Below are positions 1 through 46,400 of a DNA stretch of 64,000 nt, piece after piece. The stretch spans positions 57,440,001 through 57,504,000 of the forward strand of contig CP086569.2 of the NCBI GenBank assembly GCA_009914755.4, given 5' to 3'. The DNA is from the human T2T-CHM13v2.0 reference genome, Homo sapiens. The position numbers and the translations under genes are program-made. The notes beneath the pieces are model-generated. The model saw only the letters and a list, made by a program, of their open reading frames with translations, did no database searches and was not told the DNA's origin. Each line of letters begins with the position of its first letter. Position 1 is the stretch's first letter.

Positions 1-50
1 GTGCTTCTTAAAAAAAGTTATGAGATGGGAAATAGGGCACCCACAATTAT
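1..50. other. Short non-AT-rich leader (gtgcttcttaaaaaaagttatgagatgggaaatagggcacccacaattat) preceding the AT-rich block; identity unknown. It could be the edge of a different sub-domain of the flanking satellite unit, for example an Alu-like or poly-A-adjacent part of a DYZ2-type unit.
   Basis: Its composition differs from the following roughly 900 bp of near-pure A/T. It contains an A7 run. It has no ORF and no recognisable motif. Confidence 0.2.
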
Positions 51-21335: not shown

Positions 21336-24300
21336 CTCGTTTGGAATGGTCTAGTATGCAATGCAATCGACTGGCAGGGAATCAAAAGGAATGTAATCGA
21401 ATGGATTGGACTGGAATGCAATGGACTCGAATAGATTGGAAACGGAAAGCAAAGGAATGGAATGGAATAGTATGGAATGGAATGGAAAGGAATGGAGTGG
21501 AATAGACTAGAGTGGAATGGAATGGACTCGAAAGCAATGGACTGGAATGGAACTTTCTTGAATGGACTGGAATCAAACGGAATGGAATGCAATGCAATCA
21601 AATGGCATGGAATAAAATAGAATGAAAGAGAATCAAATGGAATTGAATCGAATGGAATCGAATGGATTGGAAAGGAATAGAATGGAATGGAATGGAATTG
21701 ACTCAAATGGAATGGACTAGAATGGAATGGATTCGAATGGAAGGCAAAGGAATGGAATCTATTGGAATGGACTGTAATGGAATGGAATGGAAGGGATTGG
21801 AATGGACTCGAATGGAATGGACTGCAGTAGAAAGGATTCGAATGGAATGAAAAAGAATTGAATGGAATAGAACAGAATGGAATCAAATCGAATGAAATGG
21901 AATGGAATAGAAAGGAATGGAATGAAATGGAATGGAAAGGATTCGAATGGAATGCAATCGAATGGAATGCAATCGAATGGAATGGAATCGAACGGAATGG
22001 AATAAAATGGAAGAAAACTGGCAAGAAATGGAATCGAAATGAATGGAGTGTTACGGAACGGACTCAAAAGGAATTGAATGTAATAGAATGGAGTGGAGTG
22101 GACTCGAATATAATGGACTAGAATGGAATGAAATCACATGGAATGGGAACGAATGGAATGGAATGGAAAGGAATGGAATCGAATGGAAAGGAATCGAATG
22201 GAAGGGAATGAAATTGAATCAACAGGAATGGAAGGGAGTAGAATAGACGGTAATGGAATGGACTCGAATAGAATGGACACGAATGCTCAAATTGAATGGA
22301 CTCGAATGGAATGGCAACGAAAGGAATGTCATCGAATGGAATTGAATCGTTGGAATGAAATCACATAGAATGGAGTGGAATCAAATGGAATTGAATCGAA
22401 AGGAAAGGAAGCGAATGGACTGAAATGAAATGGAATGGAATTGAATGGAAATTAATGCAATGGAATAGAATGGAACGAAATTTCACGGAATGGAATCAAA
22501 CTGAATGGAATCAAATCAATGGAATCAAATCAAATGGAATGGAAAGGAATTGAATGGAGTAGATTGGATTGGATGGGATTGGAATGAAATGTACTGGAAA
22601 GGACTCGAATTTCATGAAACGGAATGGAATGAATTGGAACGGAATGGACTCGAATGGAATGGAATGTCATGGAATGGCATCAAATGGAATGGAATCGAAT
22701 GCAATGGAATGCTATGGAATGGAATGGAATGCATTGGAATGGAATGTCCTCTAATGGAATGTATTCGAGTGGAATGGAATCGAATATAATGGAGTCTATT
22801 GAAATGGAATTGAAAGGAATGGGACCGAATACAATGGAACAAACTGGAATGTAATGTAATGAACTCGAATGTAATTGACTGGAATGGAATGTACATGAAT
22901 GGAATGTAATCGAATGGAAAGCAATCCAATGGAATAGAATCTAATGCAATAAAATCGACTCAAATAGAGTAGAATGTAATGGAATGGAGTGCAGTGCAAT
23001 GGAATGGAATGGAATGCAATGGAATGGAATGGAATGGAATGGAATGGGATGGAATGGTATGGAATGGATAGTAATGGACTGGAGTGAAATGGACTGGAAA
23101 AGAATGGACTCAAATTGAAAGGGCTCGAAAGGAATGGAGTCAAATGGAATGGTCTGGAATGGAATGAACACGAATGTAATGCAATCCAATAGAATGGAAT
23201 CGAATGGCATGGAATATAAAGAAATGGAATCGAAGAGAATGGAAACAAATGGAATGGAATTGAATGGAATGGAATTGAATGGAATGGGAACGAATGGAGT
23301 GAAATTGTATGCAGTAGAAGAGAATAGAATGGAATGCAAGCGAAAGGAAAGGAATGGATTGGAATGGAATGGAATTCATTGGAATGGAAGGGAATGTAGT
23401 GTAATGGACAGGCCTGGAATAAAGTGGAATGCTACGGTCTCGAATGGAATAAAAATGTATGGAATGGAATGCAATGAAACGGAATCGAATGTCATAGAAT
23501 GTAATGGAATGCAAAAAAATGGACTCCAAAATCATTGACTGGAAAGGCTGGGTGTCGAAAGGAATTGACTCCAATGGAATGGAATCGAATGGAATGGAAG
23601 TGAATAGAATCGAACTAAATCGAATGGAATGGAATTGATAGGAACGGAATGGAAAGGAATGCAATGATTTGGCATGGAATGGAATCGAAAGGCATCGAAT
23701 GGAATGGAATGGAATGCAATGGAATGGAATGTATTAGAATGTAATGAACATTAATGGAAAGTACTCGAATGGATTCGACTGGAATGGAATGTTCTGGAAG
23801 TGAATGGACTCCAATGGAATGGATTCGAAAGGAATGGAATCGAACGGAATGGAATTAAACGGAAATGAATCAAATAGAATAGAACGGAATTGAATTGAAT
23901 GGAATCGAATGCAATGGAATCTAATGAAACGGAAAGGAATGGAATGGAATGGGCTGGAATGGAATGGAATCGAAACGAATGGAATGGAATCGAACTGAAG
24001 AGACTGGAATGGAATGCACTGGAATGGAAGGGAATGTAATGGAAGGTTCTCGAAAAAAATGGAATCGAAAGGAATGGAATTGAATGGAACGGAATAGAGT
24101 CGAATGGAATTGAATGGAATGGAATGGACTAGAGTGAAATGGAATCGAACCACAAGGAATGGACAGGAATAGAATGGTCTCGAATTGAATGGAATCGTAT
24201 GGAATGGCATCAAACGGAATGGAATGGACGGCCACGGAATGGAATGCACTCGAATGCAATGGAGTCGAAACTAATGGACTGGAATAGAATGGACTCGACT

Positions 24301-24848
24301 GGTACGGACTCCAATGGAATGGAATCGAATGGAAGGGAATCGAACGGAATGGACTCGAAGGGAAAAGACTGCAATGGAAAGGTCTCGAATGGAATGGAAA
24401 TTAATGGAATGGAATGGAATCGAATGAAATGGAGTCAAAAGGAATGGAATCGAATGGCAAGAAATCGAATGTAATGGAATCGCAAGGAATTGATGTGAAC
24501 GGAACGGAATGGAATGGAATCCAAAGGAATGGAATAGAATGGAATGGAATCGAATGGAAAGGACTCGAATGGAAATCACTCGAATAGAATGCAATTTAAT
24601 AAAATAGGATCAAATGTAATGGAATGGAATGGAAAGGAATCGAAACGAAAGGAATGGAGACAGATGGAATGGAATGGAACAGAGAGCAATGGTATAGAAT
24701 GGAATGGAATCATCTGGAATGGAATTGAATGGAATGGAATAATATGAAATGGAATGGAATGGAATGGAATGCCCTTGAATTAAATGGACTGGAATGGAAT
24801 GGACTCGAACAGAGTGGAATGGAAAGTGTTGAAATAGAATGGAATGGA
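21336..24848 (+). repeat. HOR unit U6 (~3513 bp; subtype A)
   Basis: Landmark spacing 21031 to 24544. It carries the same extra GGCC at 24230-24233. Confidence 0.85.
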
Positions 24849-27800
24849 CTCGTTTGGAATGGTCTAGTATGCAATGCAATCGACTGGCAGGGAATCAAAA
24901 GGAATGTAATCGAATGGATTGGACTGGAATGCAATGGACTCGAATAGATTGGAAACGGAAAGCAAAGGAATGGAATGGAATAGTATGGAATGGAATGGAA
25001 AGGAATGGAGTGGAATAGACTAGAGTGGAATGGAATGGACTCGAAAGCAATGGACTGGAATGGAACTTTCTTGAATGGACTGGAATCAAACGGAATGGAA
25101 TGCAATGCAATCAAATGGCATGGAATAAAATAGAATGAAAGAGAATCAAATGGAATTGAATCGAATGGAATCGAATGGATTGGAAAGGAATAGAATGGAA
25201 TGGAATGGAATTGACTCAAATGGAATGGACTAGAATGGAATGGATTGGAATGGAAGGCAAAGGAATGGAATCTATTGGAATGGACTGTAATGGAATGGAA
25301 TGGAAGGGATTGGAATGGACTCGAATGGAATGGACTGCAGTAGAAAGGATTCGAATGGAATGAAAAAGAATTGAATGGAATAGAACAGAATGGAATCAAA
25401 TCGAATGAAATGGAATGGAATAGAAAGGAATGGAATGAAATGGAATGGAAAGGATTCGAATGGAATGCAATCGAATGGAATGAAATCGAATGGAATGGAA
25501 TCGAACGGAATGGAGTAAAATGGAAGAAAACTGGCAAGAAATGGAATCGAAATGAATGGAGTGTTATGGAACGGACTCAAAAGGAATTGAATGTAATAGA
25601 ATGGAGTGGAGTGGACTCGAATATAATGGACTAGAATGGAATGAAATCACATGGAATGGGAACGAATGGAATGGAATGGAAAGGAATGGAATCGAATGGA
25701 AAGGAATCGAATGGAAGGGAATGAAATTGAATCAACAGGAATGGAAGGGAGTAGAATAGACGGTAATGGAATGGACTCGAATAGAATGGACACGAATGCT
25801 CAAATTGAATGGACTCGAATGGAATGGCAACGAAAGGAATGTCATCGAATGGAATTGAATCGATTGGAATGAAATCACATAGAATGGAGTGGAATCAAAT
25901 GGAATTGAATCGAAAGGAAAGGAAGCGAATGGACTGAAATGAAATGGAATGGAATTGAATGGAAATTAATGCAATGGAATAGAATGGAACGAAATTTCAC
26001 GGAATGGAATCAAACTGAATGGAATCAAATCAATGGAATATAATCAAATGGAATGGAAAGGAATTGAATGGAGTAGATTGGATTGGATGGGATTGGAATG
26101 AAATGTACTGGAAAGGACTCGAATTTCATGAAACGGAATGGAATGAATTGGAACGGAATGGACTCGAATGGAATGGAATGTCATGGAATGGCATCAAATG
26201 GAATGGAATCGAATGCGATGGAATGCTATGGAATGGAATGGAATGCATTGGAATGGAATGTCCTCTAATGGAATGTATTCGAGTGGAATGGAATCGAATA
26301 TAATGGAGTCTAATGAAATGGAATTGAAAGGAATGGGACCGAATACAATGGAATATACTGGAATGTAATGTAATGAACTCGAATGTAATTGACTGGAATG
26401 GAATGTACATGAATGGAATGTAATCGAATGGAAAGCAATCCAATGGAATAGAATCTAATGCAATAAAATCGACTCAAATAGAGTAGAATGTACTGGAATG
26501 GAGTACAGTGCAATGGAATGGAATGGAATGGAATGCAATGGAATGGAATGGAATGGAATGGGATGGAATGGTATGGAATGGATAGTAATGGACTGGAGTG
26601 AAATGGACTGGAAAAGAATGGACTCAAATTGAAAGGGCTCGAAAGGAATGGAGTCAAATGGAATGGTCTGGAATGGAATGAACACGAATGTAATGCAATC
26701 CAATAGAATGGAATCGAATGGCATGGAATATAAAGAAATGGAATCGAAGAGAATGGAAACAAATGGAATGGAATTGAATGGAATGGAATTGAATGGAATG
26801 GGAACGAATGGAGTGAAATTGTATGCAGTAGAAGAGAATAGAATGGAATGCAAGCGAAAGGAAAGGAATGGATTGGAATGGAATGGAATTCATTGGAATG
26901 GAAGGGAATGTAGTGTAATGGACAGGCCTGGAATAAAGTGGAATGCTACGGTCTCGAATGGAATAAAAATGTATGGAATGGAATGCAATGAAACGGAATC
27001 GAATGTCATAGAATGTAATGGAATGCAAAAAAATGGACTCCAAAATCATTGACTGGAAAGGCTGGGTGTCGAAAGGAATTGACTCCAATGGAATGGAATC
27101 GAATGGAATGGAAGTGAATAGAATCGAACTAAATCGAATGGAATGGAATTGATAGGAACGGAATGGAAAGGAATGCAATGATTTGGCATGGAATGGAATC
27201 GAATGGCATCGAATGGAATGGAATGGAATGCAATGGAATGGAATGTATTAGAATGTAATGAACTTTAATGGAATGTACTCGAATGGATTCGACTGGAATG
27301 GAATGTTCTGGAAGTGAATGGACTCCAATGGAATGGATTCGAAAGGAATGGAATCTAATGGAATGGAATTAAATGGAAATGAATCAAATTGAATAGAACG
27401 GAATTGAATTGAATGGAATCGAATGCAATGGAATCTAATGAAACGGAAAGGAAAGGAATGGAATGGATTGGAATGGAATGGGCTGGAATGGAATGGAATC
27501 GAAACGAATGGAATGGAATCGAACTGAAGAGACTGGAATGGAATGCACTGGAATGGAAGGGAATGTAATGGAAGGTTCTCGAAAAAAATGGAATCGAAAG
27601 GAATGGAATTGAATGGAACGGAATAGAGTCGAATGGAATTCAATGGAATGGAATGGACTAGAGTGAAATGGAATCGAACCACAAGGAATGGACAGGAATA
27701 GAATGGTCTCGAATTGAATGGAATCGTATGGAATGGCATCAAACGGAATGGAATGGACAGCCACGGAATGGAATGGACACCCACGGAATGGAATGCACTC

Positions 27801-28397
27801 GAATGCAATGGAGTCGACACTAATGGACTGGAATAGAATGGACTCGACTGGTACGGACTCCAATGGAATGGAATCGAATGGAAGGGAATCGAAAGGAATG
27901 GACTCGAAGGGAAAAGACTGCAATGGAAAGGTCTCGAATGGAATGGAAATTAATGGAATGGAATGGAATCGAATGAAATGGAGTCAAAAGGAATGGAATC
28001 GAATGGCAAGAAATCGAATGTAATGGAATCGCAAGGAATTGATGTGAACGGAACGGAATGGAATGGAATCCAAAGGAATGGAATAGAATGGAATGGAATC
28101 GAATGGAAAGGACTCGAATGGAAATCACTCGAATAGAATGCAATTTAATAAAATAGGATCAAATGTAATGGAATGGAACGGAAAGGAATCGAAACGAAAG
28201 GAATGGAGACAGATGGAATGGAATGGAACAGAGAGCAATGGTATAGAATGGAATGGAATCATCTGGAATGGAATTGAATGGAATGGAATAATATGAAATG
28301 GAATGGAATGGAATGGAATGCCCTTGAATTAAATGGACTGGAATGGAATGGACTCGAACAGAGTGGAATGGAAAGTGTTGAAATAGAATGGAATGGA
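24849..28397 (+). repeat. HOR unit U7 (~3549 bp; subtype B, near-identical to U8)
   Basis: Landmark spacing 24544 to 28093. It contains a 20-bp tandem duplication at 27745-27784. Confidence 0.85.
27745..27784 (+). repeat. 20-bp direct tandem duplication (ggaatggaatggacagccac / ggaatggaatggacacccac), private to U7 and U8.
   Basis: Read directly; other units have a single copy. The same duplication is at 31294-31333 in U8. Confidence 0.8.
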
Positions 28398-31300
28398 CTC
28401 GTTTGGAATGGTCTAGTATGCAATGCAATCGACTGGCAGGGAATCAAAAGGAATGTAATCGAATGGATTGGACTGGAATGCAATGGACTCGAATAGATTG
28501 GAAACGGAAAGCAAAGGAATGGAATGGAATAGTATGGAATGGAATGGAAAGGAATGGAGTGGAATAGACTAGAGTGGAATGGAATGGACTCGAAAGCAAT
28601 GGACTGGAATGGAACTTTCTTGAATGGACTGGAATCAAACGGAATGGAATGCAATGCAATCAAATGGCATGGAATAAAATAGAATGAAAGAGAATCAAAT
28701 GGAATTGAATCGAATGGAATCGAATGGATTGGAAAGGAATAGAATGGAATGGAATGGAATTGACTCAAATGGAATGGACTAGAATGGAATGGATTCGAAT
28801 GGAAGGCAAAGGAATGGAATCTATTGGAATGGACTGTAATGGAATGGAATGGAAGGGATTGGAATGGACTCGAATGGAATGGACTGCAGTAGAAAGGATT
28901 CGAATGGAATGAAAAAGAATTGAATGGAATAGAACAGAATGGAATCAAATCGAATGAAATGGAATGGAATAGAAAGGAATGGAATGAAATGGAATGGAAA
29001 GGATTCGAATGGAATGCAATCGAATGGAATGAAATCGAATGGAATGGAATCGAACGGAATGGAATAAAATGGAAGAAAACTGGCAAGAAATGGAATCGAA
29101 ATGAATGGAGTGTTATGGAACGGACTCAAAAGGAATTGAATGTAATAGAATGGAGTGGAGTGGACTCGAATATAATGGACTAGAATGGAATGAAATCACA
29201 TGGAATGGGAACGAATGGAATGGAATGGAAAGGAATGGAATCGAATGGAAAGGAATCGAATGGAAGGGAATGAAATTGAATCAACAGGAATGGAAGGGAG
29301 TAGAATAGACGGTAATGGAATGGACTCGAATAGAATGGACACGAATGCTCAAATTGAATGGACTCGAATGGAATGGCAACGAAAGGAATGTCATCGAATG
29401 GAATTGAATCGATTGGAATGAAATCACATAGAATGGAGTGGAATCAAATGGAATTGAATCGAAAGGAAAGGAAGCGAATGGACTGAAATGAAATGGAATG
29501 GAATTGAATGGAAATTAATGCAATGGAATAGAATGGAACGAAATTTCACGGAATGGAATCAAACTGAATGGAATCAAATCAATGGAATATAATCAAATGG
29601 AATGGAAAGGAATTGAATGGAGTAGATTGGATTGGATGGGATTGGAATGAAATGTACTGGAAAGGACTCGAATTTCATGAAACGGAATGGAATGAATTGG
29701 AACGGAATGGACTCGAATGGAATGGAATGTCATGGAATGGCATCAAATGGAATGGAATCGAATGCGATGGAATGCTATGGAATGGAATGGAATGCATTGG
29801 AATGGAATGTCCTCTAATGGAATGTATTCGAGTGGAATGGAATCGAATATAATGGAGTCTAATGAAATGGAATTGAAAGGAATGGGACCGAATACAATGG
29901 AATATACTGGAATGTAATGTAATGAACTCGAATGTAATTGACTGGAATGGAATGTACATGAATGGAATGTAATCGAATGGAAAGCAATCCAATGGAATAG
30001 AATCTAATGCAATAAAATCGACTCAAATAGAGTAGAATGTAATGGAATGGAGTACAGTGCAATGGAATGGAATGGAATGGAATGCAATGGAATGGAATGG
30101 AATGGAATGGGATGGAATGGTATGGAATGGATAGTAATGGACTGGAGTGAAATGGACTGGAAAAGAATGGACTCAAATTGAAAGGGCTCGAAAGGAATGG
30201 AGTCAAATGGAATGGTCTGGAATGGAATGAACACGAATGTAATGCAATCCAATAGAATGGAATCGAATGGCATGGAATATAAAGAAATGGAATCGAAGAG
30301 AATGGAAACAAATGGAATGGAATTGAATGGAATGGAATTGAATGGAATGGGAACGAATGGAGTGAAATTGTATGCAGTAGAAGAGAATAGAATGGAATGC
30401 AAGCGAAAGGAAAGGAATGGATTGGAATGGAATGGAATTCATTGGAATGGAAGGGAATGTAGTGTAATGGACAGGCCTGGAATAAAGTGGAATGCTACGG
30501 TCTCGAATGGAATAAAAATGTATGGAATGGAATGCAATGAAACGGAATCGAATGTCATAGAATGTAATGGAATGCAAAAAAATGGACTCCAAAATCATTG
30601 ACTGGAAAGGCTGGGTGTCGAAAGGAATTGACTCCAATGGAATGGAATCGAATGGAATGGAAGTGAATAGAATCGAACTAAATCGAATGGAATGGAATTG
30701 ATAGGAACGGAATGGAAAGGAATGCAATGATTTGGCATGGAATGGAATCGAATGGCATCGAATGGAATGGAATGGAATGCAATGGAATGGAATGTATTAG
30801 AATGTAATGAACTTTAATGGAATGCACTCGAATGGATTCGACTGGAATGGAATGTTCTGGAAGTGAATGGACTCCAATGGAATGGATTCGAAAGGAATGG
30901 AATCTAATGGAATGGAATTAAATGGAAATGAATCAAATTGAATAGAACGGAATTGAATTGAATGGAATCGAATGCAATGGAATCTAATGAAACGGAAAGG
31001 AAAGGAATGGAATGGATTGGAATGGAATGGGCTGGAATGGAATGGAATCGAAACGAATGGAATGGAATCGAACTGAAGAGACTGGAATGGAATGCACTGG
31101 AATGGAAGGGAATGTAATGGAAGGTTCTCGAAAAAAATGGAATCGAAAGGAATGGAATTGAATGGAACGGAATAGAGTCGAATGGAATTGAATGGAATGG
31201 AATGGACTAGAGTGAAATGGAATCGAACCACAAGGAATGGACAGGAATAGAATGGTCTCGAATTGAATGGAATCGTATGGAATGGCATCAAACGGAATGG

Positions 31301-31946
31301 AATGGACAGCCACGGAATGGAATGGACACCCACGGAATGGAATGCACTCGAATGCAATGGAGTCGACACTAATGGACTGGAATAGAATGGACTCGACTGG
31401 TACGGACTCCAATGGAATGGAATCGAATGGAAGGGAATCGAAAGGAATGGACTCGAAGGGAAAAGACTGCAATGGAAAGGTCTCGAATGGAATGGAAATT
31501 AATGGAATGGAATGGAATCAAATGAAATGGAGTCAAAAGGAATGGAATCGAATGGCAAGAAATCAAATGTAATGGAATCGCAAGGAATTGATGTGAACGG
31601 AACGGAATGGAATGGAATCCAAAGGAATGGAATAGAATGGAATGGAATCGAATGGAAAGGACTCGAATGGAAATCACTCGAATAGAATGCAATTTAATAA
31701 AATAGGATCAAATGTAATGGAATGGAACGGAAAGGAATCGAAACGAAAGGAATGGAGACAGATGGAATGGAATGGAACAGAGAGCAATGGTATAGAATGG
31801 AATGGAATCATCTGGAATGGAATTGAATGGAATGGAATAATATGAAATGGAATGGAATGGAATGGAATGCCCTTGAATTAAATGGACTGGAATGGAATGG
31901 ACTCGAACAGAGTGGAATGGAAAGTGTTGAAATAGAATGGAATGGA
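28398..31946 (+). repeat. HOR unit U8 (~3549 bp; subtype B)
   Basis: Landmark spacing 28093 to 31642. It carries the same 20-bp tandem duplication at 31294-31333. Confidence 0.85.
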
Positions 31947-34900
31947 CTCGTTTGGAATGGTCTAGTATGCAATGCAATCGACTGGCAGGGAATCAAAAGG
32001 AATGTAATCGAATGGATTGGACTGGAATGCAATGGACTCGAATAGATTGGAAACGGAAAGCAAAGGAATGGAATGGAATAGTATGGAATGGAATGGAAAG
32101 GAATGGAGTGGAATAGACTAGAGTGGAATGGAATGGACTGGAAAGCAATGGACTGGAATGGAACTTTCTTGAATGGACTGGAATCAAACGGAATGGAATG
32201 CAATGCAATCAAATGGCATGGAATAAAATAGAATGAAAGAGAATCAAATGGAATTGAATCGAATGGAATCGAATGGATTGGAAAGGAATAGAATGGAATG
32301 GAATGGAATTGACTCAAATGGAATGGACTAGAATGGAATGGATTCGAATGGAAGGCAAAGGAATGGAATCTATTGGAATGGACTGTAATGGAATGGAATG
32401 GAAGGGATTGGAATGGACTCGAATGGAATGGACTGCAGTAGAAAGGATTCGAATGGAATGAAAAAGAATTGAATGGAATAGAACAGAATGGAATCAAATC
32501 GAATGAAATGGAATGGAATAGAAAGGAATGGAATGAAATGGAATGCAAAGGATTCGAATGGAATGCAATCGAATGGAATGGAATCGAACGGAATGGAATA
32601 AAATGGAAGAAAACTGGCAAGAAATGGAATCGAAATGAATGGAGTGTTATGGAACGGACTCAAAAGGAATTGAATGTAATAGAATGGAGTGGAGTGGACT
32701 CGAATATAATGGACTGGAATGGAATGAAATCACATGGAATGGGAACGAATGGAATGGAATGGAAAGGAATGGAATCGAATGGAAAGGAATCGAATGGAAG
32801 GGAATGAAATTGAATCAACAGGAATGGAAGGGAATAGAATAGACGGTAATGGAATGGACTCGAATAGAATGGACACGAATGCTCAAATTGAATGGACTCG
32901 AATGGAATGGAAACGAAAGGAATGTCATCGAATGGAATTGAATCGATTGGAATGAAATTGCATAGAATGGAGTGGAATCAAATGGAATTGAATCGAAAGG
33001 AAAGGAAGCGAATGGACTGAAATGAAATGGAATGGAATTGAATGGAAAGTAATGCAATGGAATAGAATGGAACGAAATTTCACGGAATGGAATGAAACTG
33101 AATGGAATCAAATCAATGGAATCTAATCAAGTGGAATGGAAAGGAATTGAATGGAGTAGATTGGATTGGATGGGATTGGAATGAAATGTACTGGAAAGGA
33201 CTCGAGTTTCATGAAACGGAATGGAATGAATTGGAACGGAATGGACTCGAATGGAATGCAATGTCATGGAATGGCATCAAATGGAATGGCATCAAATGGA
33301 ATGGAATCGAATGCAATGGAATGCTATGGAATGGAATGGAATGCATTGGAATGGAATGTCCTCTAATGGAATGGATTCGAGTGGAATGGAATCGAATATA
33401 ATGGAGTCGAATGAAATGGAATTGAAAGGAATGGGATCGAATACAATGGAATATACTGGAATGTAATGTAATGAACTCGAATGTAATTGACTGGAATGGA
33501 ATGTACATGAATGGAATGTAATCGAATGGAAAGTAATCCAATGGAATAGAATCTAATGCAATAAAATCGACTCAGATAGAGTAGAATGTAATGGAATGGA
33601 GTGCAGTGCAATGGAATGGAATGGAATGGAATGCAATGGAATGGAATGGAATGGAAAGGAATGGAATGGATTGGGATGGAATGGTATGGAATGGATAGTA
33701 ATGGACTGGAGTGAAATGGACTGGAAATGAATGGACTCAAATTGAAAGGGCTCGAAAGGAATGGAGTCAAAAGGAATGGTCTGGAATGGAATGAACACGA
33801 ATGTAATGCAATCCAATAGAATGGAATCGAATGGCATGGAATATAAAGAAATGGAATCGAAGAGAATGGAAACAAATGGAATGGAATTGAATGGAATGGA
33901 ATTGAATGGAATGGGAACGAATGGAGTGAAATTGTATGCAGTAGAAGAGAATAGAATGGAATGCAAGCGAAAGGAAAGGAATGGATTGGAATGGAATGGA
34001 ATTCATTGGAATGGAAGGGAATGTAGTGTAATGGACAGGCCTGGAATAAAGTGGAATGCTACGGTCTCAAATGGAATAAAAATGTATGGAATGGAATGCA
34101 ATGAAACGGAATCGAATGTCATAGAATGTAATGGAATGCAAAAAAATGGAATCCAAAATCATTGACTGGAAAGGCTGGGTGTCGAAAGGAATTGACTCCA
34201 ATGGAATGGAATCGAATGGAATGGAAGTGAATAGAATCGAACTAAATCGAATGGAATGGAACTGATAGGAACGGAATGGAAAGGAATGCAATGATTTGGC
34301 ATGGAATGGAATCGAATGGCATCGAATGGAATGGAATGGAATGCAATGGAATGGAATGTATTAGAATGTAATGAACTTTAATGGAATGTACTCGAAAGGA
34401 TTTGACTGGAATGGAATCTTCTGGAAGTGAATGGACTCCAATGGAATGGATTCGAAAGGAATGGAATCGTACGGAATGGAATCTAATGGAATGGAATTAA
34501 ATGGAAATGAATCAAATTGAATAGCACGGAATTGAATTGAATGTAATGGAATGCAATGGAATCTAATGAAACGGAAAGGAAAGGAATGCAATGGAATGGA
34601 ATGGGCTGGAATGGAAAGGAATCGAAACGAATGGAATGGAATCGAACTGAAGAGACTGGAATGGAATGCACTGGAATGGAAGGGAGTGTAATGGAAGGTT
34701 CTCGAAAAAAATGGAATCGAATGGAATGGAATTGAGTGGAACGGAATAGAGTCGAATGCAGTTGAATGGAGTGGAATGGACTAGAGTGAAATGGAATCGA
34801 ACCACAAGGAATGGACAGGAATAGAATGGTCTCGAATTGAATGGAATCGTATGGAATGGCATCAAACGGAATGGAATGGACAGCCACGGAATGGAATGCA

Positions 34901-35500: not shown

Positions 35501-38500
35501 TTGGAATGGTCTAGTATGCAATGCAATCGACTGGCAGGGAATCAAAAGGAATGTAATGGAATGGATTGGACTGGAATGCAATGGACTCGAATAGATTGGA
35601 AACGGAATGCAAAGGAATGGAATGGAATAGTATGGAATGGAATGGAAAGGAATGGAGTGGAATAGACTAGAGTGGAATGGAATGGACTGGAAAGCAATGG
35701 ACTGGAATGAAACTTTCTTGAATGGACTGGAATCAAACGGAATGGAATGCAATGCAATCAAATGGCATGGAATAAGATAGAATGAAAGAGAATCAAATGG
35801 AATTGAATCGAATGGAATCGAATGGATTGGAAAGGAAGAGAATGGAATGGAATGGAATTGACTCAAATGGAATGGACTAGAATGGAATGGATTCGAATGG
35901 AAGGCAAAGGAATGGAATCTATTGGAATGGACTGTAATGGAATGGAATGGAAGGGATTGGAATGGACTCAAATGGAATGGACTGCAATAGAAAGGATTCG
36001 AATGGAATGAAAAAGAATTGAATGGAATAGAACAGAATGGAATCAAATCGAATGAAATGGAATGGAATAGAAAGGAATGGAATGAAATGGAATGGAAAGG
36101 ATTCGAATGGAATGCAATCGAATGGAATGGAATCGAACGGAATGGAATAAAATGGAAGAAAACTGGCAAGAAATGGAATCGAAATGAATGGAGTGTTATG
36201 GAACGGACTCAAAAGGAATTGAATGTAATAGAATGGAGTGGAGTGGACTCGAATATAATGGACTGGAATGGAATGAAATCACATGGAATGGGAACGAATG
36301 GAATGGAATGGAAAGGAATGGAATCGAATGTAAAGGAATCGAACGGAAGGGAATGAAATTGAATCAACAGGAATGGAAGGGAATAGAATAGACTGTAATG
36401 GAATGGACACGAATAGAATGGACACGAATGCTCAAGTTGAATGGACTCGAATGGAATGGAAAGGAAAGGAAAGTCATCGAATGGAATTGAATCGATTGGA
36501 ATGAAATCGCATAGAATGGAGTGGAATCAAATGGAATTGAATCGAAAGGAAAGGAAGCGAATGGACTGAAATGAAATGGAATGGAATTGAATGGAAAGTA
36601 ATGCAATGGAATAGAATGGAACGAAATTTCACGGAATGGAATCAAACTGAATGGAATCAAATCAATGGAATCTAATCAAATGGAATGGAAAGGAATTGAA
36701 TGGAGTATATTGGATTGGATGGGATTGGAATGAAATGTACTGGAAAGGACTCGAATTTCATGAAACGGAATGGAATGAATTGGAACGGAATGGACTCGAA
36801 TGGAATGGAATGACATGGAATGGCATCAAATGGAATGGCATCAAATGGAATGGAATCGAATACAATGGAATGCTATGGAATGGAATGGAATGCATTGGAA
36901 TGGAATGTCCTCTAATGGAATGGATTCGAGTGGAATGGAATCGAATATAATGGAGTCGAATGAAATGGAATTGAAAGGAATGGGATCGAATAGAATGGAA
37001 TATACTGGAATGTAATGTAATGAACTCGAATGTAATTGACTGGAATGGAATGTACATGAATGGAATGTAATCGAATGGAAAGTAATCCAATGGAATAGAA
37101 TCTAATGCAATAAAATCGACTCAGATAGAGTAGAATGTAATGGAATGGAGTGCAGTGCAATGGAATGGAATGGAATGGAATGCAATGGAATGGAATGGAA
37201 TGGAATGGAATGGAATGGAATGGGATGGAATGGTATGGAATGGTATGGAATGGATAGTAATGGACTGGAGTGAAATGGACTGGAAAGGAATGGACTCAAA
37301 TTGAAAGGGCTCGAAAGGAATGGAGACAAATGAAATGGTCTGGAATGGAATGAACACGAATGTAATGCAATCCAATAGAATGGAGTCGAATGGCATGGAA
37401 TATAAAGAAATGGAATCGAAGAGAATGGAAACAAATGGAATGGAATTGAATGGAATGGAATTGAATGGAATGGGAACGAATGGAGTGAAATTGTATGCAG
37501 TAGAAGAGAATAGAATGGAATGCAAGCGAAAGGAAAGGAATGGATTGGAATGGAATGGAATTCATTGGAATGGAAGGGAATGTAGTGTAATGGACAGGCC
37601 TGGAATAAAGTGGAATGCTACGGTCTCGAATGGAATAAAAATGTATGGAATGGAATGCAATGAAACGGAATCGAATGTCATAGAATGTAATGGAATGCAA
37701 AAAAATGGAATCCAAAATCATTGACTGGAAAGGCTGGGTGTCGAAAGGAATTGACTCCAATGGAATGGAATCGAATGGAATGGAAGTGAATAGAATCGAA
37801 CTAAATCGAATGGAATGGAATTGATAGGAACGGAATGGAAAGGAATGCAATGATTTGGCATGGAATGGAATCGAATGGCATCGAATGGAATGGAATGGAA
37901 TGCAATGGAATGGAATGTATTAGAATGTAATGAACTTTAATGGAATGTACTCGAATGGATTCGACTGGAATGGAATGTTCTGGAAGTGAATGGACTCCAA
38001 TGGAATGGATTCAAAAGGAATGGAATCGTACGGAATGGAATCTAATGGAATGGAATTAAATGGAAATGAATCAAATTGAATAGCACGGAATTGAATTGAA
38101 TGGAATGGAATGCAATGGAATCTAATGAAACGGAAAGGAAAGGAATGGAATGGAATGGAATGGGCTGGAATGGAAAGGAATCGAAACGAATGGAATAGAA
38201 TCGAACTGAAGAGACTGGAATGGAATGCACTGGAATGGAAGGGAGTGTAATGGAAGGTTCTCGAAAAAAATGGAATCGAATGGAATGGAATTGAATGGAA
38301 CGGAATAGAGTCGAATGGAATTGAATGGAATGGAATGGACTAGAGTGAAATGGAATCGAACCACAAGGAATGGACAGGAATAGAATGGTCTCGAATTGAA
38401 TGGAATCGTATGGAATGGCATCAAACGGAATGGAATGGACAGCCACGGAATGGAATGCACTCGAATGCAATGGAGTCGAAACTAATGGACTGGAATAGAA

Positions 38501-39059
38501 TGGATTCGACTGGTACGGACTCCAATGGAATGGAATCGAATGGAAGGGAATCGAACGGAATGGACTCGAAGGGAAAAGACTGCAATGGAAAGGTCTCGAA
38601 TGGAATGGAAATTAATGGAATGGAATGGAATCGAATGAAATGGAGTCAAAAGGAATGGAATCGAATGGCAAGAAATCAAATGTAATGGAATCGCAAGGAA
38701 TTGATGTGAACGGAACGGAATGGAATGGAATCCAAAGGAATGGAATAGAATGGAATGGAATCGAATGGAAAGGACTCGAATGGAAATCACTCGAATAGAA
38801 TGCAATTTAATAAAATAGGATCAAATGTAATGGAATGGAATGGAAAGGAATCGAAACGGAAGGAATGGAGACCGATGGAATGGAATGGAACAGAGAGCAA
38901 TGGTATAGAATGGAATGGAATCATCTGGAATGGAATTGAATGGAATGGAATAATATGAAATGGAATGGAATGGAATGGAATGGAATGCCCTTGAATTAAA
39001 TGGACTGGAATGGAATGGACTCGAACAGAGTGGAATGGAAAGTGTTGAGATAGAATGGA
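35501..39059 (+). repeat. HOR unit U10 (~3559 bp)
   Basis: Landmark spacing 35196 to 38755. Confidence 0.85.
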
Positions 39060-40570
39060 ATGGACTCCTTTGGAATGGTGTAGTATGCAATGTAATCGAC
39101 TGGCAGGGAATCAAAAGGAATGTAATGGAATGGATTGGACTGGAATGCAATGGACTCGAATAGATTGGAAACGGAATGCAAAGGAATGGAATGGAATAGT
39201 ATGGAATGGAATGGAAAGGAATGGAGTGGAATAGACTAGAGTGGAATGGAATGGACTGGAAAGCAATGGACTGGAATGGAACTTTCTTGAATGGACTGGA
39301 ATCAAACGGAATGGAATGCAATGCAATCAAATGGCATGGAATAAAATAGAATGAAAGAGAATCAAATGGAATTGAATCGAATGGAATCGAATGGATTGGA
39401 AAGGAATAGAATGGAATGGAATGGAATTGACTCAAATGGAATGGACTAGAATGGAATGGATTCGAATGGAAGGCAAAGGAATGGAATCTATTGGAATGGA
39501 CTGTAATGGAATGGAATGGAAGGGATTGGAATGGACTCGAATGGAATGGACTGCAATAGAAAGGATTCGAATGGAATGAAAAAGAATTGAATGGAATAGA
39601 ACAGAATGGAATCAAATCGAATGAAATGGAATGGAATAGAAAGGAATGGAATGAAATGGAATGGAAAGGATTCGAATGGAATGCAATCGAATGGAATGGA
39701 ATCGAACGGAATGGAATAAAATGGAAGAAAACTGGCAAGAAATGGAATCGAAATGAATGGAGTGTTATGGAACGGACTCAAAAGGAATTGAATGTAATAG
39801 AATGGAGTGGAGTGGACTCGAATATAATGGACTGGAATGGAATGAAATCACATGGAATGGGAACGAATGGAATGGAATGGAAAGGAATGGAATCGAATGG
39901 AAAGGAATCGAACGGAAGGGAATGAAATTGAATCAACAGGAATGGAAGGGAATAGAATAGACTGTAATGGAATGGACACGAATAGAATGGACACGAATGC
40001 TCAAGTTGAATGGACTCGAATGGAATGGAAAGGAAAGGAAAGTCATCGAATGGAATTGAATCGATTGGAATGAAATCGCATAGAATGGAGTGGAATCAAA
40101 TGGAATTGAATCGAAAGGAAAGGAAGCGAATGGACTGAAATGAAATGGAATGGAATTGAATGGAAAGTAATGCAATGGAATAGAATGGAACGAAATTTCA
40201 CGGAATGGAATCAAACTGAATGGAATCAAATCAATGGAATCTAATCAAATGGAATGGAAAGGAATTGAATGGAGTATATTGGATTGGATGGGATTGGAAT
40301 GAAATGTACTGGAAAGGACTCGAATTTCATGAAACGGAATGGAATGAATTGGAACGGAATGGACTCGAATGGAATGGAATGACATGGAATGGCATCAAAT
40401 GGAATGGCATCAAATGGAATGGAATCGAATACAATGGAATGCTATGGAATGGAATGGAATGCATTGGAATGGAATGTCCTCTAATGGAATGGATTCGAGT
40501 GGAATGGAATCGAATATAATGGAGTCGAATGAAATGGAATTGAAAGGAATGGGATCGAATAGAATGGAAT

Positions 40571-41355
40571 ATACTGGAATGTAATGTAATGAACTCGAAT
40601 GTAATTGACTGGAATGGAATGTACATGAATGGAATGTAATCGAATGGAAAGTAATCCAATGGAATAGAATCTAATGCAATAAAATCGACTCAGATAGAGT
40701 AGAATGTAATGGAATGGAGTGCAGTGCAATGGAATGGAATGGAATGGAATGCAATGGAATGGAATGGAATGGAATGGAATGGAATGGAATGGGATGGAAT
40801 GGGATGGAATGGTATGGAATGGATAGTAATGGACTGGAGTGAAATGGACTGGAAAGGAATGGACTCAAATTGAAAGGGCTCGAAAGGAATGGAGACAAAT
40901 GTAATGGTCTGGAATGGAATGAACACGAATGTAATGCAATCCAATAGAATGGAGTCGAATGGCATGGAATATAAAGAAATGGAATCGAAGAGAATGGAAA
41001 CAAATGGAATGGAATTGAATGGAATGGAATTGAATGGAATGGGAACGAATGGAGTGAAATTGTATGCAGTAGAAGAGAATAGAATGGAATGCAAGCGAAA
41101 GGAAAGGAATGGATTGGAATGGAATGGAATTCATTGGAATGGAAGGGAATGTAGTGTAATGGACAGGCCTGGAATAAAGTGGAATGCTACGGTCTCGAAT
41201 GGAATAAAAATGTATGGAATGGAATGCAATGAAACGGAATCGAATGTCATAGAATGTAATGGAATGCAAAAAAATGGAATCCAAAATCATTGACTGGAAA
41301 GGCTGGGTGTCGAAAGGAATTGACTCCAATGGAATGGAATCGAATGGAATGGAAT
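40571..41355 (+). repeat. Intra-unit tandem duplication in U11, copy A (785 bp)
   Basis: 'ggaatatactggaatgtaatgtaatgaactcgaatgtaattgactgg' begins at 40566 and again at 41351. At the junction (~41355) the canonical continuation '...gaatggaatggaagtgaatagaatcg' is replaced by '...gaatggaatggaa|tatactggaatg'. Confidence 0.8.
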
Positions 41356-42140
41356 ATACTGGAATGTAATGTAATGAACTCGAATGTAATTGACTGGAAT
41401 GGAATGTACATGAATGGAATGTAATCGAATGGAAAGTAATCCAATGGAATAGAATCTAATGCAATAAAATCGACTCAGATAGAGTAGAATGTAATGGAAT
41501 GGAGTGCAGTGCAATGGAATGGAATGGAATGGAATGCAATGGAATGGAAGGCAATGCAATGGAATGGAATGGAATGGAATGGAATGGGATGGAATGGTAT
41601 GGAATGGATAGTAATGGACTGGAGTGAAATGGACTGGAAAGGAATGGACTCAAATTGAAAGGGCTCGAAAGGAATGGAGACAAATGGAATGGTCTGGAAT
41701 GGAATGAACACGAATGTAATGCAATCCAATAGAATGGAGTCGAATGGCAGGGAATATAAAGAAATGGAATCGAAGAGAATGGAAACAAACGGAATGGAAT
41801 TGAATGGAATGGAATTGAATGGAATGGGAACGAATGGAGTGAAATTGTATGCAGTAGAAGAGAATAGAATGGAATGCAAGCGAAAGGAAAGGAATGGATT
41901 GGAATGGAATGGAATTCATTGGAATGGAAGGGAATGTAGTGTAATGGACAGGCCTGGAATAAAGTGGAATGCTACGGTCTCGAATGGAATAAAAATGTAT
42001 GGAATGGAATGCAATGAAACGGAATCGAATGTCATAGAATGTAATGGAATGCAAAAAAATGGACTCCAAAATCATTGACTGGAAAGGCTGGGTGTCGAAA
42101 GGAATTGACTCCAATGGAATGGAATCGAATGGAATGGAAG
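41356..42140 (+). repeat. Intra-unit tandem duplication in U11, copy B (785 bp)
   Basis: The second copy ends at ~42140, after which the canonical 'gtgaatagaatcaaactaaatcgaatgg' resumes. The two copies differ by a few substitutions, for example gtaatggtctgg against ggaatggtctgg. Confidence 0.8.
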
Positions 42141-43411
42141 TGAATAGAATCAAACTAAATCGAATGGAATGGAATTGATAGGAACGGAATGGAAAGGAAT
42201 GCAATGATTTGGCATGGAATGGAATCGAATGGCATCGAATGGAATGGAATGGAATGCAATGGAATGGAATGTATTAGAATGTAATGAACTTTAATGGAAT
42301 GTACTCGAATGGATTCGACTGGAATGGAATGTTCTGGAAGTGAATGGACTCCAATGGAATGGATTCAAAAGGAATGGAATCGTACGGAATGGAATCTAAT
42401 GGAATGGAATTAAATGGAAATGAATCAAATTGAATAGCACGGAATTGAATTGAATGGAATCGAATGCAATGGAATCTAATGAAACGGAAAGGAAAGGAAT
42501 GGAATGGAATGGAATGGGCTGGAATGGAAAGGAATCGAAACGAATGGAATGGAATCGAACTGAAGAGACTGGAATGGAATGCACTGGAATGGAAGGGAGT
42601 GTAATGGAAGGTTCTCGAAAAAAATGGAACCGAATGGAATGGAATTGAATGGAACGGAATAGAGTCGAATGGAATTGAATGGAATGGAATGGACTAGAGT
42701 GAAATGGAATCGAACCACAAGGAATGGACAGGAATAGAATGGTCTCGAATTGAATGGAATCGTATGGAATGGTCAAACGGAATGGAATGGACAGTCACGG
42801 AATGGAATGCACTCGAATGCAATGGAGTCGAAACTAATGGACTGGAATAGAATGGATTCGACTGGTACGGACTCCAATGGAATGGAATCGAATGGAAGGG
42901 AATCGAACGGAATGGACTCGAAGGGAAAAGACTGCAATGGAAAGGTCTCGAATGGAATGGAAATTAATGGAATGGAATGGAATCGAATGAAATGGAGTCA
43001 AAAGGAATGGAATCGAATGGCAAGAAATCAAATGTAATGGAATCGCAAGGAATTGATGTGAACGGAACGGAATGGAATGGAATCCAAAGGAATGGAATAG
43101 AATGGAATGGAATCGAATGGAAAGGACTCGAATGGAAATCACTCGAATAGAATGCAATTTAATAAAATAGGATCAAATGTAATGGAATGGAATGGAAAGG
43201 AATCGAAACGAAAGGAATGGAGACCGATGGAATGGAATGGAACAGAGAGCAATGGTATAGAATGGAATGGAATCATCTGGAATGGAATTGAATGGAATGG
43301 AATAATATGAAATGGAATGGAATGGAATGGAATGGAATGCCCTTGAATTAAATGGACTGGAATGGAATGGACTCGAACAGAGTGGAATGGAAAGTGTTGA
43401 GATAGAATGGA

Positions 43412-46400
43412 ATGGACTCCTTTGGAATGGTGTAGTATGCAATGTAATCGACTGGCAGGGAATCAAAAGGAATGTAATCGAATGGATTGGACTGGAATGC
43501 AATGGACTCGAATAGATTGGAAACGGAATGCAAAGGAATGGAATGGAATAGTATGGAATGGAATGGAAAGGAATGGAGTGGAATAGACTAGAGTGGAATG
43601 GAATGGACTGGAAAGCAATGGACTGGAATGGAACTTTCTTGAATGGACTGGAATCAAACGGAATGGAATGCAATGCAATCAAATGGCATGGAATAAAATA
43701 GAATGAAAGAGAATCAAATGGAATTGAATCGAATGGAATCGAATGGATTGGAAAGGAATAGAATGGAATGGAATGGAATTGACTCAAATGGAATGGACTA
43801 GAATGGAATGGATTCGAATGGAAGGCAAAGGAATGGAATCTATTGGAATGGAATGTAATGGAATGGAATGGAAGGGATTGGAATGGACTCGAATGGAATG
43901 GACTGCAATAGAAAGGATTCGAATGGAATGAAAAAGAATTGAATGGAATAGAACAGAATGGAATCAAATCGAATGAAATGGAATGGAATAGAAAGGAATG
44001 GAATGAAATGGAATGGAAAGGATTCGAATGGAATGCAATCGAATGGAATGGAATCGAACGGAATGGAATAAAATGGAAGAAAACTGGCAAGAAATGGAAT
44101 CGAAATGAATGGAGTGTTATGGAACGGACTCAAAAGGAATTGAATGTAATAGAATGGAGTGGAGTGGACTCGAATATAATGGACTGGAATGGAATGAAAT
44201 CACATGGAATGGGAACGAATGGAATGGAATGGAAAGGAATGGAATGGAATGGAAAGGAATCGAATGGAAGGGAATGAAAATGAATCAACAGGAATGGAAG
44301 GGAATAGAATAGACGGTAATGGAATGGACTCGAATAGAATGGACACGAATGCTCAAATTGAATGGACTCGAAAGGAATGGAAAGGAAAGGAATGTCATCG
44401 AATGGAATTGAATCGATTGGAATGAAATCGCATAGAATGGAGTGGAATCAAATGGAATTGAATCGAAAGGAAAGGAAGCGAATGGACTGAAATGAAATGG
44501 AATGGAATTGAATGGAAAGTAATGCAATGGAATAGAATGGAACGAAATTTCACGGAATGGAATCAAACTGAATGGAATCAAATCAATGGAATCTAATCAA
44601 ATGGAATGGAAAGGAATTGAATGGAGTAGATTGGATTGGATGGGATTGGAATGAAATGTACTGGAAAGGACTCGAATTTCATGAAACGGAATGGAATGAA
44701 TTGGAACGGAATGGACTCGAATGGAATGGAATGTCATCGAATGGCATCAAATGGAATGGCATCAAATGGAATGGAATCGAATGCAATGGAATGCTATGGA
44801 ATGGAATGGAATGCATTGGAATGGAATGTCCTCTAATGGAATGGATTCGAGTGGAATGGAATCGAATATAATGGAGTCGAATGAAATGGAATTGAAAAGA
44901 ATGGGATCGAATACAATGGAATATACTGGAATGTAATGTAATGAACTCGAATGTAATTGACTGGAATGGAATGTACATGAATGGAATGTAATCGAATAGA
45001 AAGTAATCCAATGGAATAGAATGTAAAGCAATAAAATCGACTCAGATAGAGTAGAATGTAATGGAATGGAGTGTAGTGCAATGGAATGGAATGGAATGGA
45101 ATGCAATGGAATGGAATGGAATGGGATGGAATGGTATGGAATGGATAGTAATGGACTGGAGTGAAATGGACTGGAAAGGAATGGACTCAAATTGAAAGGG
45201 CTCGAAAGGAATGGAGACAAATGGAATGGTCTGGAATGGAATGAACACGAATGTAATGCAATCCAATAGAATGGAGTCGAATGGCAGGGAATATAAAGAA
45301 ATGGAATCGAAGAGAATGGAAACAAATGGAATGGAATTGAATGGAATGGAATTGAATGGAATGGGAACGAATGGAGTGAAATTGTATGCAGTAGAAGAGA
45401 ATAGAATGGAATGCAAGCGAAAGGAAAGGAATGGATTGGAATGGAATGGAATTCATTGGAATGGAAGGGAATGTAGTGTAATGGACAGGCCTGCAATAAA
45501 GTGGAATGCTACGGTCTCGAATGGAATAAAAATGTATGGAATGGAATGCAATGAAACGGAATCGAATGTCATAGAATGTAATGGAATGCAAAAAAATGGA
45601 ATCCAAAATCATTGACTGGAAAGGCTGGGTGTCGAAAGGAATTGACTCCAATGGAATGGAATCGAATGGAATGGAAGTGAATAGAATCAAACTAAATCGA
45701 ATGGAATGGAATTGATAGGAACGGAATGGAAAGGAATGCAATGATTTGGCATGGAATGGAATCGAATGGCATCAAATGGAATGGAATGGAATGCAATGGA
45801 ATGGAATGTATTAGAATATAATGAACTTTAATGGAATGTACTCGAATGGATTCGACTGGAATGGAATGTTCTGGAAGTGAATGGACTCCAATGGAATGGA
45901 TTCCAAAGGAATGGAATCGTACGGAATGGAATCTAATGGAATGGAATTAAATGGAAATGAATCAAATTGAATAGCACGGAATTGAATTGAATGGAATGGA
46001 ATGCAATGGAATCTAATGAAACGGAAAGGAAAGGAATGCAATGGAATGGAATGGGCTGGAATGGAAAGGAATCGAAACGAATGGAATGGAATCGAACTGA
46101 AGAGACTGGAATGGAAAGCACTGGAATGGAAGGGAGTGTAATGGAAGGTTCTCGAAAAAAATGGAATCGAATGGAATGGAATTGAATGGAACGGAATAGA
46201 GTCGAATGCAATTGAATGGAATGGAATGGACTAGAGTGAAATGGAATCGAACCACAAGGAATGGACAGGAATAGAATGGTCTCGAATTGAATGGAATCGT
46301 ATGGAATGGCATCAAACGGAATGGAATGGACAGCCACGGAATGGAATGCACTCGAATGCAATGGAGTCGAAACTAATGGACTGGAATAGAATGGATTCGA

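What the first reader, a model, noticed from the sequence alone, without database searches (positions are those of the whole stretch)
40566..42140. 785-bp tandem duplication inside a single HOR unit (U11), producing a 4352-bp variant unit
The segment from 'tatactggaatgtaatgtaatgaactcg' to 'gactccaatggaatggaatcgaatggaatggaa' occurs twice in direct tandem. The breakpoint has 'gaatggaa' microhomology. The two copies are almost identical, which means the event is recent. It adds an extra HaeIII site, so a digest would give a 785-bp sub-band. A length-variant unit of this kind could seed a new HOR subfamily if it is amplified.
Basis: seen in the sequence. Interest (0 to 1): 0.55.

Follow-up and report, generated by a model that had tools for sequence, protein, structure and literature searches.

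The report
Extra 785-bp piece in one DYZ1 unit
One repeat unit of the human Y-chromosome satellite DYZ1 carries a real head-to-tail 785-bp duplication, but this is ordinary satellite turnover, is not shown to be recent, and shows no sign of spreading.

Summary
Window 40570-41354 and 41355-42139 are two colinear 785-bp copies with 777/785 identical bases and no gaps. They make a 4352-bp unit in an array of 3484-3569-bp units. The array is human DYZ1 (HSat3A6): a published 3564-bp DYZ1 HaeIII unit aligns full-length to every unit at 96.4-99.1%.

The 8-nt GAATGGAA microhomology and the extra HaeIII site (785-bp fragment) are also real.

- **Not shown to be recent.** The copies differ by 1.0%, the same as neighbouring whole units (0.8-1.2%).
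- **The copies are not closest relatives.** Copy 1 differs by 2 bases from the matching segment of the preceding unit. It lies in a 1454-bp tract that is 99.86% identical to the sequence 3569 bp upstream and ends at the junction. Copy 2 shares a derived base with downstream units.
- **Best reading.** An out-of-register (157-pentamer) repair or exchange event templated copy 1 from the preceding unit's lineage.
- **The HaeIII band is not diagnostic.** Point mutations give 819-bp and 565-bp fragments in the same window.
- **No spread.** The junction occurs once here and in 0 of 43 DYZ1 boundaries in other public contigs.

Sub-unit rearrangements are common; a 680-bp deletion unit lies in the same window. 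Low interest.

The parts
40570..41354 (+). Copy 1 of the 785-bp segment ('A'). This is the copy that groups with the preceding unit, and it is probably the added one.
   Evidence: 2 differences from 37001-37785 and 8 from copy 2. It shares the derived G at 40793 with the preceding unit only.
41355..42139 (+). Copy 2 of the 785-bp segment. It continues into the rest of the unit and is probably the resident copy.
   Evidence: it has the private changes GGCAATGCAA (41550-41557) and C at 41790. Its derived G at 41750 is shared with the two downstream units. It keeps the ancestral bases at 41578 and 41687.
40570..44921 (+). The 4352-bp variant DYZ1 unit (A-A-B), in a phase that starts at TATACTGG.
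   Evidence: the unit table, and the 4352/4354 k-mer spacing.
40562..40569 (+). GAATGGAA just upstream of copy 1 (microhomology, left breakpoint).
41347..41354 (+). GAATGGAA at the copy 1 / copy 2 junction. This junction is the only new sequence the event created.
   Evidence: the junction string GACTCCAATGGAATGGAATCGAATGGAATGGAATATACTGG occurs once in the window.
42132..42139 (+). GAATGGAA at the end of copy 2 (microhomology, right breakpoint).
41166..41169 (.). HaeIII site (GGCC) in copy 1.
41951..41954 (.). HaeIII site (GGCC) in copy 2, 785 bp from the first.
39901..41354 (+). Near-identity tract (3' end of the preceding unit plus copy 1) that ends at the junction.
   Evidence: 2 differences in 1454 bp against 36332-37785. 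Only 4.6% of 1454-bp windows are this close to the next unit.
36332..37785 (+). Partner, and probable template, of the near-identity tract, exactly one 3569-bp unit upstream.
   Evidence: nine derived bases in the 3' part are shared only by these two units.

Best explanation
This is a real, single-copy structural variant of the human Y-chromosome satellite DYZ1 (HSat3A6), with no function of its own. The normal unit can be written A-B (A = 785 bp, B = about 2784 bp); this unit is A-A-B. It arose by out-of-register recombination or repair between DYZ1 units of the same or the sister chromatid. The offset was 785 bp (exactly 157 pentamers), and the join fell at an 8-nt GAATGGAA shared by the end of A and the end of B. 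The two A copies do not descend from one A by a recent in-place doubling. Copy 1 belongs to the lineage of the preceding unit, and copy 2 is the resident A of the downstream unit. The simplest single event is repair synthesis that invaded one unit out of place in the 3' part of B (around 36.0-36.3 kb). It then copied through the preceding unit's A to its end and rejoined at the start of the resident A through the microhomology. That adds exactly one A. An in-register unit gain followed by deletion of exactly one B gives the same product. Shown: the structure, the DYZ1 identity, the microhomology, and which copies are related to which. Inferred: the mechanism and the order of events.
For: Colinear copies, 777/785 identical, no gaps. 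DYZ1 identity: a published human 3564-bp HaeIII unit (PMC3925983, Additional file 1) aligns full-length at 96.4-99.1% to every unit. Copy 1 against the preceding unit's A shows 2 differences; against copy 2 it shows 8. Polarised with 20 outside copies, the G at 40793 is derived and shared only by copy 1 and the preceding unit, and the G at 41750 is derived and shared by copy 2 and the two downstream units. 36332-37785 against 39901-41354 shows 2 differences in 1454 bp and ends at the junction, whereas sequence further upstream differs by about 1.5%. The sequence after the junction differs from the preceding unit at the background rate, with the first difference at 42152. Tracts this similar cover 4.6% of the array. 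Microhomology of 8 nt has P=0.028 for random pairs. 785 is a multiple of 5, and flank identity of 0.66-0.77 equals in-phase pentamer alignment. A second event of the same class lies in the same window: a 680-bp (136-pentamer) deletion between two GGAAT runs at 2372-5240. The T2T-Y paper reports unequal-exchange patterns and sister-chromatid exchanges in Yq12. A pedigree study reports gene-conversion-like de novo changes in Yq12.
Against: The grouping of copy 1 with the preceding unit rests on a distance of 2 against 8 and on one or two shared derived sites. A later gene conversion onto copy 1 would give the same picture, and such a tract would have to stop at the junction anyway, because homology ends there. 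Near-identity tracts between neighbours occur at three other places in the window, so the tract could abut the junction by coincidence (about 5%). No second haplotype and no reads were available, so neither the ancestral state nor the order of events was observed.
Confidence: 0.55

Rival explanations
1. In-place tandem duplication. A sister-chromatid exchange or replication slip, offset by 785 bp within a single unit, made two initially identical copies. Later, an ordinary in-register gene conversion from the preceding unit overwrote the 3' end of B and copy 1, and a few point changes accumulated.
For: It needs only the classical mechanism plus the conversion already documented in Yq12 and visible elsewhere in the window as mosaic near-identity tracts. 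A conversion tract must end at or before the junction because homology stops there. The three A segments (preceding unit, copy 1, copy 2) share the same length configuration, with no gaps among them.
Against: It needs two events plus the tract end falling at the junction. The shared 785-bp length configuration also occurs in outside copies (L005 and L040), so it is not a shared derived feature. If the 8 differences had arisen only by new changes, a rough Yq12 rate would put the event at about 20,000 generations. That rate is my arithmetic: 40 SNVs in 6 transmissions over a mean of about 27 Mb, or about 2.5e-7 per bp per generation. Such an age is older than the sampled human Y tree (180,000 years).
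Confidence: 0.3
2. Assembly artefact: a false insertion or chimeric path in a highly repetitive array.
For: Yq12 is among the hardest regions to assemble, and manual graph curation was needed in recent Y assemblies. No read data could be examined.
Against: The new junction has only 8 nt of overlap between unrelated parts of the unit. An overlap or graph assembler would not create it without reads that contain it (inference). Each copy carries private bases: T at 40902 in copy 1; GGCAATGCAA and C at 41790 in copy 2. These are not expected from a duplicated read path.
Confidence: 0.05
3. An amplified length-variant subfamily: the A-A-B unit is one member of a 4.35-kb DYZ1 subfamily present elsewhere on the Y.
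For: Yq12 contains recent multi-megabase duplications spanning whole blocks, so any unit can exist in several copies. Variant-length repeats derived from DYZ1 have amplified before, such as the 2.7-kb transition repeat.
Against: There is one occurrence in 17 complete units. The 43-nt junction string is absent from metagenome contigs. All 43 boundaries in contaminant DYZ1 contigs are of the normal type. Most of those contigs are short-read collapses, so rare variants would be missed.
Confidence: 0.07

Closest known systems
Canonical human DYZ1 / HSat3A6 unit (3564-3569-bp HaeIII repeat of Yq12)
   Same: Pentamer GGAAT/TTCCA base, about 3.56-kb period, one HaeIII site per unit, and 96.4-99.1% full-length identity to a published unit. 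The modal 3569-bp fragment of Hallast et al. equals the preceding unit, 37599-41167.
   Different: This unit is 4352 bp. It carries the segment spanning the HaeIII site twice, at roughly published positions 3378-3564 plus 1-597 (my conversion).
DYZ1 unit-length heterogeneity reported from complete Y assemblies (Hallast et al. 2023 supplement)
   Same: DYZ1 units range from 1165 to 3608 bp, and 5% are shorter than 3 kb. Virtual HaeIII fragments run from under 25 bp to over 200 kb, and units near array edges are more diverged. The window starts at an array edge and shows the same features.
   Different: That description is aggregate only. I found no paper that describes this particular 785-bp duplication. 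An HMM-based partition would split such a unit rather than report a 4.35-kb unit.
Structural-variant higher-order repeats of alpha satellite (units with gained or lost monomers)
   Same: The same kind of event: out-of-register exchange inside a higher-order unit gives a longer or shorter unit embedded among canonical ones (my own knowledge of the centromere literature; not checked here).
   Different: There the register is the 171-bp monomer, with long homology. Here it is a 5-bp pentamer, with only 8 nt of exact identity and about 22/24 nt of imperfect identity at the join.
The 680-bp deletion unit in the same window (2372-5240)
   Same: A sub-unit rearrangement in the same first quarter of the unit, with a length that is a multiple of 5 and breakpoints in GGAAT runs.
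   Different: It is a loss rather than a gain, has about 20 nt of exact identity at the breakpoints, and lies in the most diverged, edge-proximal unit.

Membership tests
Human DYZ1 / HSat3A6 | Built from diverged GGAAT/TTCCA pentamers | tested here: met
   the Tandem Repeats Finder consensus is made of ATGGA/GGAAT multiples across 977-64000.
Human DYZ1 / HSat3A6 | Higher-order period of about 3.56 kb (3564/3569 bp modal) | tested here: met
   units of 3484-3569 bp. The unit before the variant is 3569 bp, the modal length in Hallast et al..
Human DYZ1 / HSat3A6 | One HaeIII (GGCC) site per unit | tested here: met
   one conserved site per unit, plus three extra sites from point changes and one from the duplication.
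Human DYZ1 / HSat3A6 | Full-length sequence identity to a published human DYZ1 unit | tested here: met
   the reverse complement of the MZT1a 3564-bp unit (PMC3925983, Additional file 1) aligns at 96.4-99.1% to every HaeIII unit, best at 37599-41167.
Human DYZ1 / HSat3A6 | Arrays alternate with DYZ2/HSat1B, which has a >85% AT part | tested here: inconclusive
   window 1-951 is 82-87% AT and abuts the array, but no DYZ2 reference was available to align.
Human DYZ1 / HSat3A6 | Located in Yq12 | not testable with these tools
   No human assembly could be searched.
Recent in-place tandem duplication | Two colinear head-to-tail copies with no spacer | tested here: met
Recent in-place tandem duplication | Microhomology at the breakpoints | tested here: met
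   8 nt (GAATGGAA), P=0.028 for random pairs. This is only mildly unusual in a pentamer satellite.
Recent in-place tandem duplication | The two copies are each other's closest relatives and are closer than neighbouring units | tested here: not met
   copy 1 is 2 differences from the preceding unit and 8 from copy 2. The 1.0% between the copies equals the background between neighbours.
Amplified higher-order-repeat length subfamily | The variant unit or its junction recurs | tested here: not met
   it occurs once in the window and in 0 of 43 outside boundaries. Complete Y assemblies were not searchable.

The most novel reading that the evidence does not exclude
The locus preserves the footprint of a single template-switch repair event. 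In-register invasion occurred one unit away, about 1.45-1.8 kb was copied, and the return was mediated by microhomology out of register. If so, it shows directly how pentameric HSat3 arrays create new unit lengths. The junction 43-mer would then be a clean, datable marker for one Yq12 block lineage across Y haplogroups.
Probability: 0.12. Interest if true: 0.3.

Novelty: new member of a known kind. Interest (0 to 1): 0.12.

Why it matters
It matters little on its own. It is one more length variant in a satellite already known to vary in unit length and to evolve by unequal exchange and conversion. Its modest value is as a worked example. The relatedness of the copies shows that a 'tandem duplication' in a satellite need not be a doubling of one copy. 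The unique junction string could also serve as a lineage marker for one DYZ1 block when complete Y assemblies are compared.

Tried and rejected
1. Chance or background pentamer similarity as the source of the repeat. Rejected: in-phase background identity is about 0.65 against 0.99 observed.

2. Extended homology at the breakpoints, i.e. classical homologous exchange between internal sub-repeats 785 bp apart. Rejected: identity at offset 785 is flat at 0.52-0.78 along the unit, with only a small local peak at the breakpoint.

3. The 680-bp deletion unit as the reciprocal product of the duplication. Rejected: the breakpoints differ (unit offsets 188-867 against 1-785) and so does the length.

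4. Shared length configuration of the three A segments as evidence that they form a group. Rejected: the same 785-bp configuration occurs in outside copies.

5. Search for the junction elsewhere. The junction 43-mer has no hit in metagenome contigs. The generic boundary 35-mer has 6 hits in 'bacterial' genome contigs and 37 in metagenome contigs, all of the normal type. This is a weak test, because most of those contigs are short-read collapses of human contamination.

6. Protein-based look-ups across the junction. Not pursued: ORFs spanning it are only 36-90 aa and the sequence is non-coding satellite.

7. Literature search for a described 4.35-kb or 785-bp DYZ1 variant. None found.

8. Dating from the 8 differences. 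Only a rough bound is possible, because conversion and mutation cannot be separated.

Full report
**What the window is.** From about 952 to 64000 the window is a GGAAT-pentamer satellite. It has a higher-order period of 3484-3569 bp and one conserved HaeIII site per unit. I transcribed a published human DYZ1 3564-bp HaeIII unit (MZT1a, Additional file 1 of PMC3925983). Its reverse complement aligns full-length to every HaeIII unit of the window at 96.4-99.1%, best at 37599-41167 (3569 bp). Hallast et al. report 3569 bp as the commonest virtual HaeIII fragment in six of seven complete Yq12 assemblies. The window is therefore human DYZ1 (HSat3A6), read on the GGAAT strand. Positions 1-951 are 82-87% AT. 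That fits the AT-rich part of DYZ2/HSat1B described in the T2T-Y paper, so the window starts at a DYZ2-to-DYZ1 block edge. Units are more diverged towards that edge (95.6-97% against 98-99%), as reported for DYZ1 arrays.

**The observation.** The two segments 40570-41354 and 41355-42139 are colinear 785-bp copies with 777/785 identical bases, 8 substitutions and no gaps.
- An 8-nt GAATGGAA precedes copy 1 (40562-40569), ends copy 1 (41347-41354) and ends copy 2 (42132-42139).
- All 24-mers repeated at distance 785 lie at this locus.
- The resulting unit is 4352 bp.
- GGCC sites at 41166 and 41951 are 785 bp apart. HaeIII would therefore cut this unit into 785-bp and 3537-bp fragments, not a 4.35-kb band.

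**Are the copies 'almost identical, hence recent'?** They are not, relative to the array.
- The copies differ by 1.0%.
- The remainder of the same unit differs from the preceding unit by 22/2784 = 0.8%.
- The whole resident unit is 99.08% identical to the preceding unit.
- Across the array, a unit differs from the next about once per 83 bp.

The copies are also not each other's nearest relatives.
- Copy 1 differs from the homologous segment of the preceding unit (37001-37785) at 2 positions, and from copy 2 at 8.
- I polarised the differences with 20 DYZ1 copies recovered from other public contigs.
- The G at 40793 is derived and found only in copy 1 and the preceding unit.
- Position 40902 is mutated in both of these (T and A; the ancestral G is kept in copy 2).
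- The G at 41750 is derived and shared by copy 2 and the two downstream units.
- GGCAATGCAA (41550-41557) and C at 41790 are private to copy 2.
- The next site after the junction (42152) again groups the resident unit with downstream units and not with the preceding unit.

**A near-identity tract that ends at the junction.** I aligned [unit at 33452 plus the next A] against [unit at 37001 plus copy 1].
- There are 38 substitutions and 2 indels up to 35970.
- After that there is one difference at 36331, and then only two differences (37234/40803 and 37333/40902) up to the junction.
- So 36332-37785 and 39901-41354 are 99.86% identical over 1454 bp.
- Nine derived bases in the 3' part of these two units occur nowhere else in the window.
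- Only 4.6% of 1454-bp windows are this similar to the next unit; such windows fall in three other regions.
- Copy 1 is thus the right-hand end of a recent copy of the sequence lying exactly one unit upstream.

**Mechanism (inferred).** All candidate routes are out-of-register recombination or repair on a non-recombining chromosome. They are consistent with the unequal-exchange patterns and sister-chromatid exchanges reported in Yq12 and with the conversion-like de novo changes seen in pedigrees.
- The offset is 157 pentamers.
- The join has 8 nt of exact identity and about 22/24 nt of imperfect identity.
- There is no longer homology at that offset.

There are three routes to the same product:
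- **(a) One event.** Repair synthesis invades one unit out of place in the 3' part of B, copies through the preceding unit's A, and rejoins at the start of the resident A by microhomology. This adds exactly 785 bp and explains the tract, the relatedness of the copies and the junction together.
- **(b) Two events, gain then loss.** An in-register unit gain is followed by deletion of exactly one B.
- **(c) Two events, doubling then conversion.** An in-place doubling is followed by in-register conversion of copy 1 from the preceding unit. Such a tract would have to stop at the junction because homology ends there.

I favour (a) or (b), in which copy 1 comes from the preceding unit's lineage, at about 0.55. 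I put (c) at about 0.3. With one haplotype and no reads they cannot be separated.

A rough rate can be taken from the pedigree study: 40 Yq12 SNVs in six transmissions over about 27 Mb, or about 2.5e-7 per bp per generation by my arithmetic. At that rate, 8 new differences would take on the order of 20,000 generations. This argues against doubling followed by mutation alone.

An assembly artefact is unlikely. An 8-nt overlap cannot create a graph edge, and each copy has private bases. This could not be tested.

**How ordinary is it?** Sub-unit variation is routine in this array.
- The same window holds a 2869-bp unit (2372-5240) with a 680-bp (136-pentamer) deletion between two GGAAT runs.
- Most units differ in length by multiples of 5.
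- Hallast et al. report DYZ1 units from 1165 to 3608 bp and virtual HaeIII fragments from under 25 bp to over 200 kb.
- Extra HaeIII sites made by point changes give two 819-bp fragments and one 565-bp fragment in this window, so a ~0.8-kb HaeIII band would not identify the duplication.

**Does it recur?** There is no sign of it.
- The junction string occurs once in the window and has no match in metagenome contigs.
- A generic boundary 35-mer recovered 6 'bacterial' genome contigs and 35 metagenome loci carrying DYZ1 at 96-99% identity. This is human contamination of the kind the T2T-Y paper describes.
- All 43 boundaries in those contigs are normal.
- These are mostly collapsed short-read contigs, so the test only excludes a common variant.
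- I found no paper describing this variant.

**Verdict.** The duplication is real and correctly located, and it lies in human DYZ1. It is a new instance of a well-known kind of satellite variation and is of low interest.

Noticed in passing
window 1-951: This stretch is 82-87% AT, non-pentameric sequence that abuts the satellite. It is probably the AT-rich part of a DYZ2/HSat1B unit, so the window starts at a DYZ2-to-DYZ1 block boundary. DYZ1-like sequence begins near 952, at about published unit position 2095.
   Followed up: partly
window 952-2371: The first roughly 1.4 kb of the array matches DYZ1 at only 90-95% and consists of partial units. This fits the higher divergence reported at array edges.
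   Followed up: partly
window 2372-5240: A 2869-bp unit with a 680-bp (136-pentamer) deletion at unit offsets 188-867. The deletion lies between two pure GGAAT runs that share about 20 nt. It also has a 15-bp gap.
   Followed up: yes
window 20717, 24230 and 56669: Extra HaeIII sites created by point changes. GACAGCC became GACGGCC in two adjacent units, giving 819-bp fragments. GGGCTGG became GGGCCTG in one unit, giving a 565-bp fragment.
   Followed up: yes
window 19500-22000 and 24600-27900: Other tracts of 1.4 kb or more that are nearly identical to the next unit. They show a mosaic pattern of local conversion or unit duplication along the array.
   Followed up: partly
window 37333 / 40902 / 41687: One homologous site has three states: A in the preceding unit, T in copy 1, and G in copy 2. 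G is ancestral in 20/20 outside copies. The site was hit twice in the same small lineage.
   Followed up: no
L001-L041 (e.g. BMRF01000076.1 Actinomadura cremea, CAYVXY010000078.1, JANCAF010000052.1): Forty-one contigs filed as bacterial genomes or metagenomes are human DYZ1 at 96-99% identity. Several are about 3.6 kb, i.e. one collapsed unit. This is human Y-satellite contamination of public assemblies.
   Followed up: partly
window 26354-33451 (around alignment column 1450): Two adjacent units share a private 10-bp insertion (CCACGGAATG) next to the site that became a HaeIII site in the two units before them.
   Followed up: no
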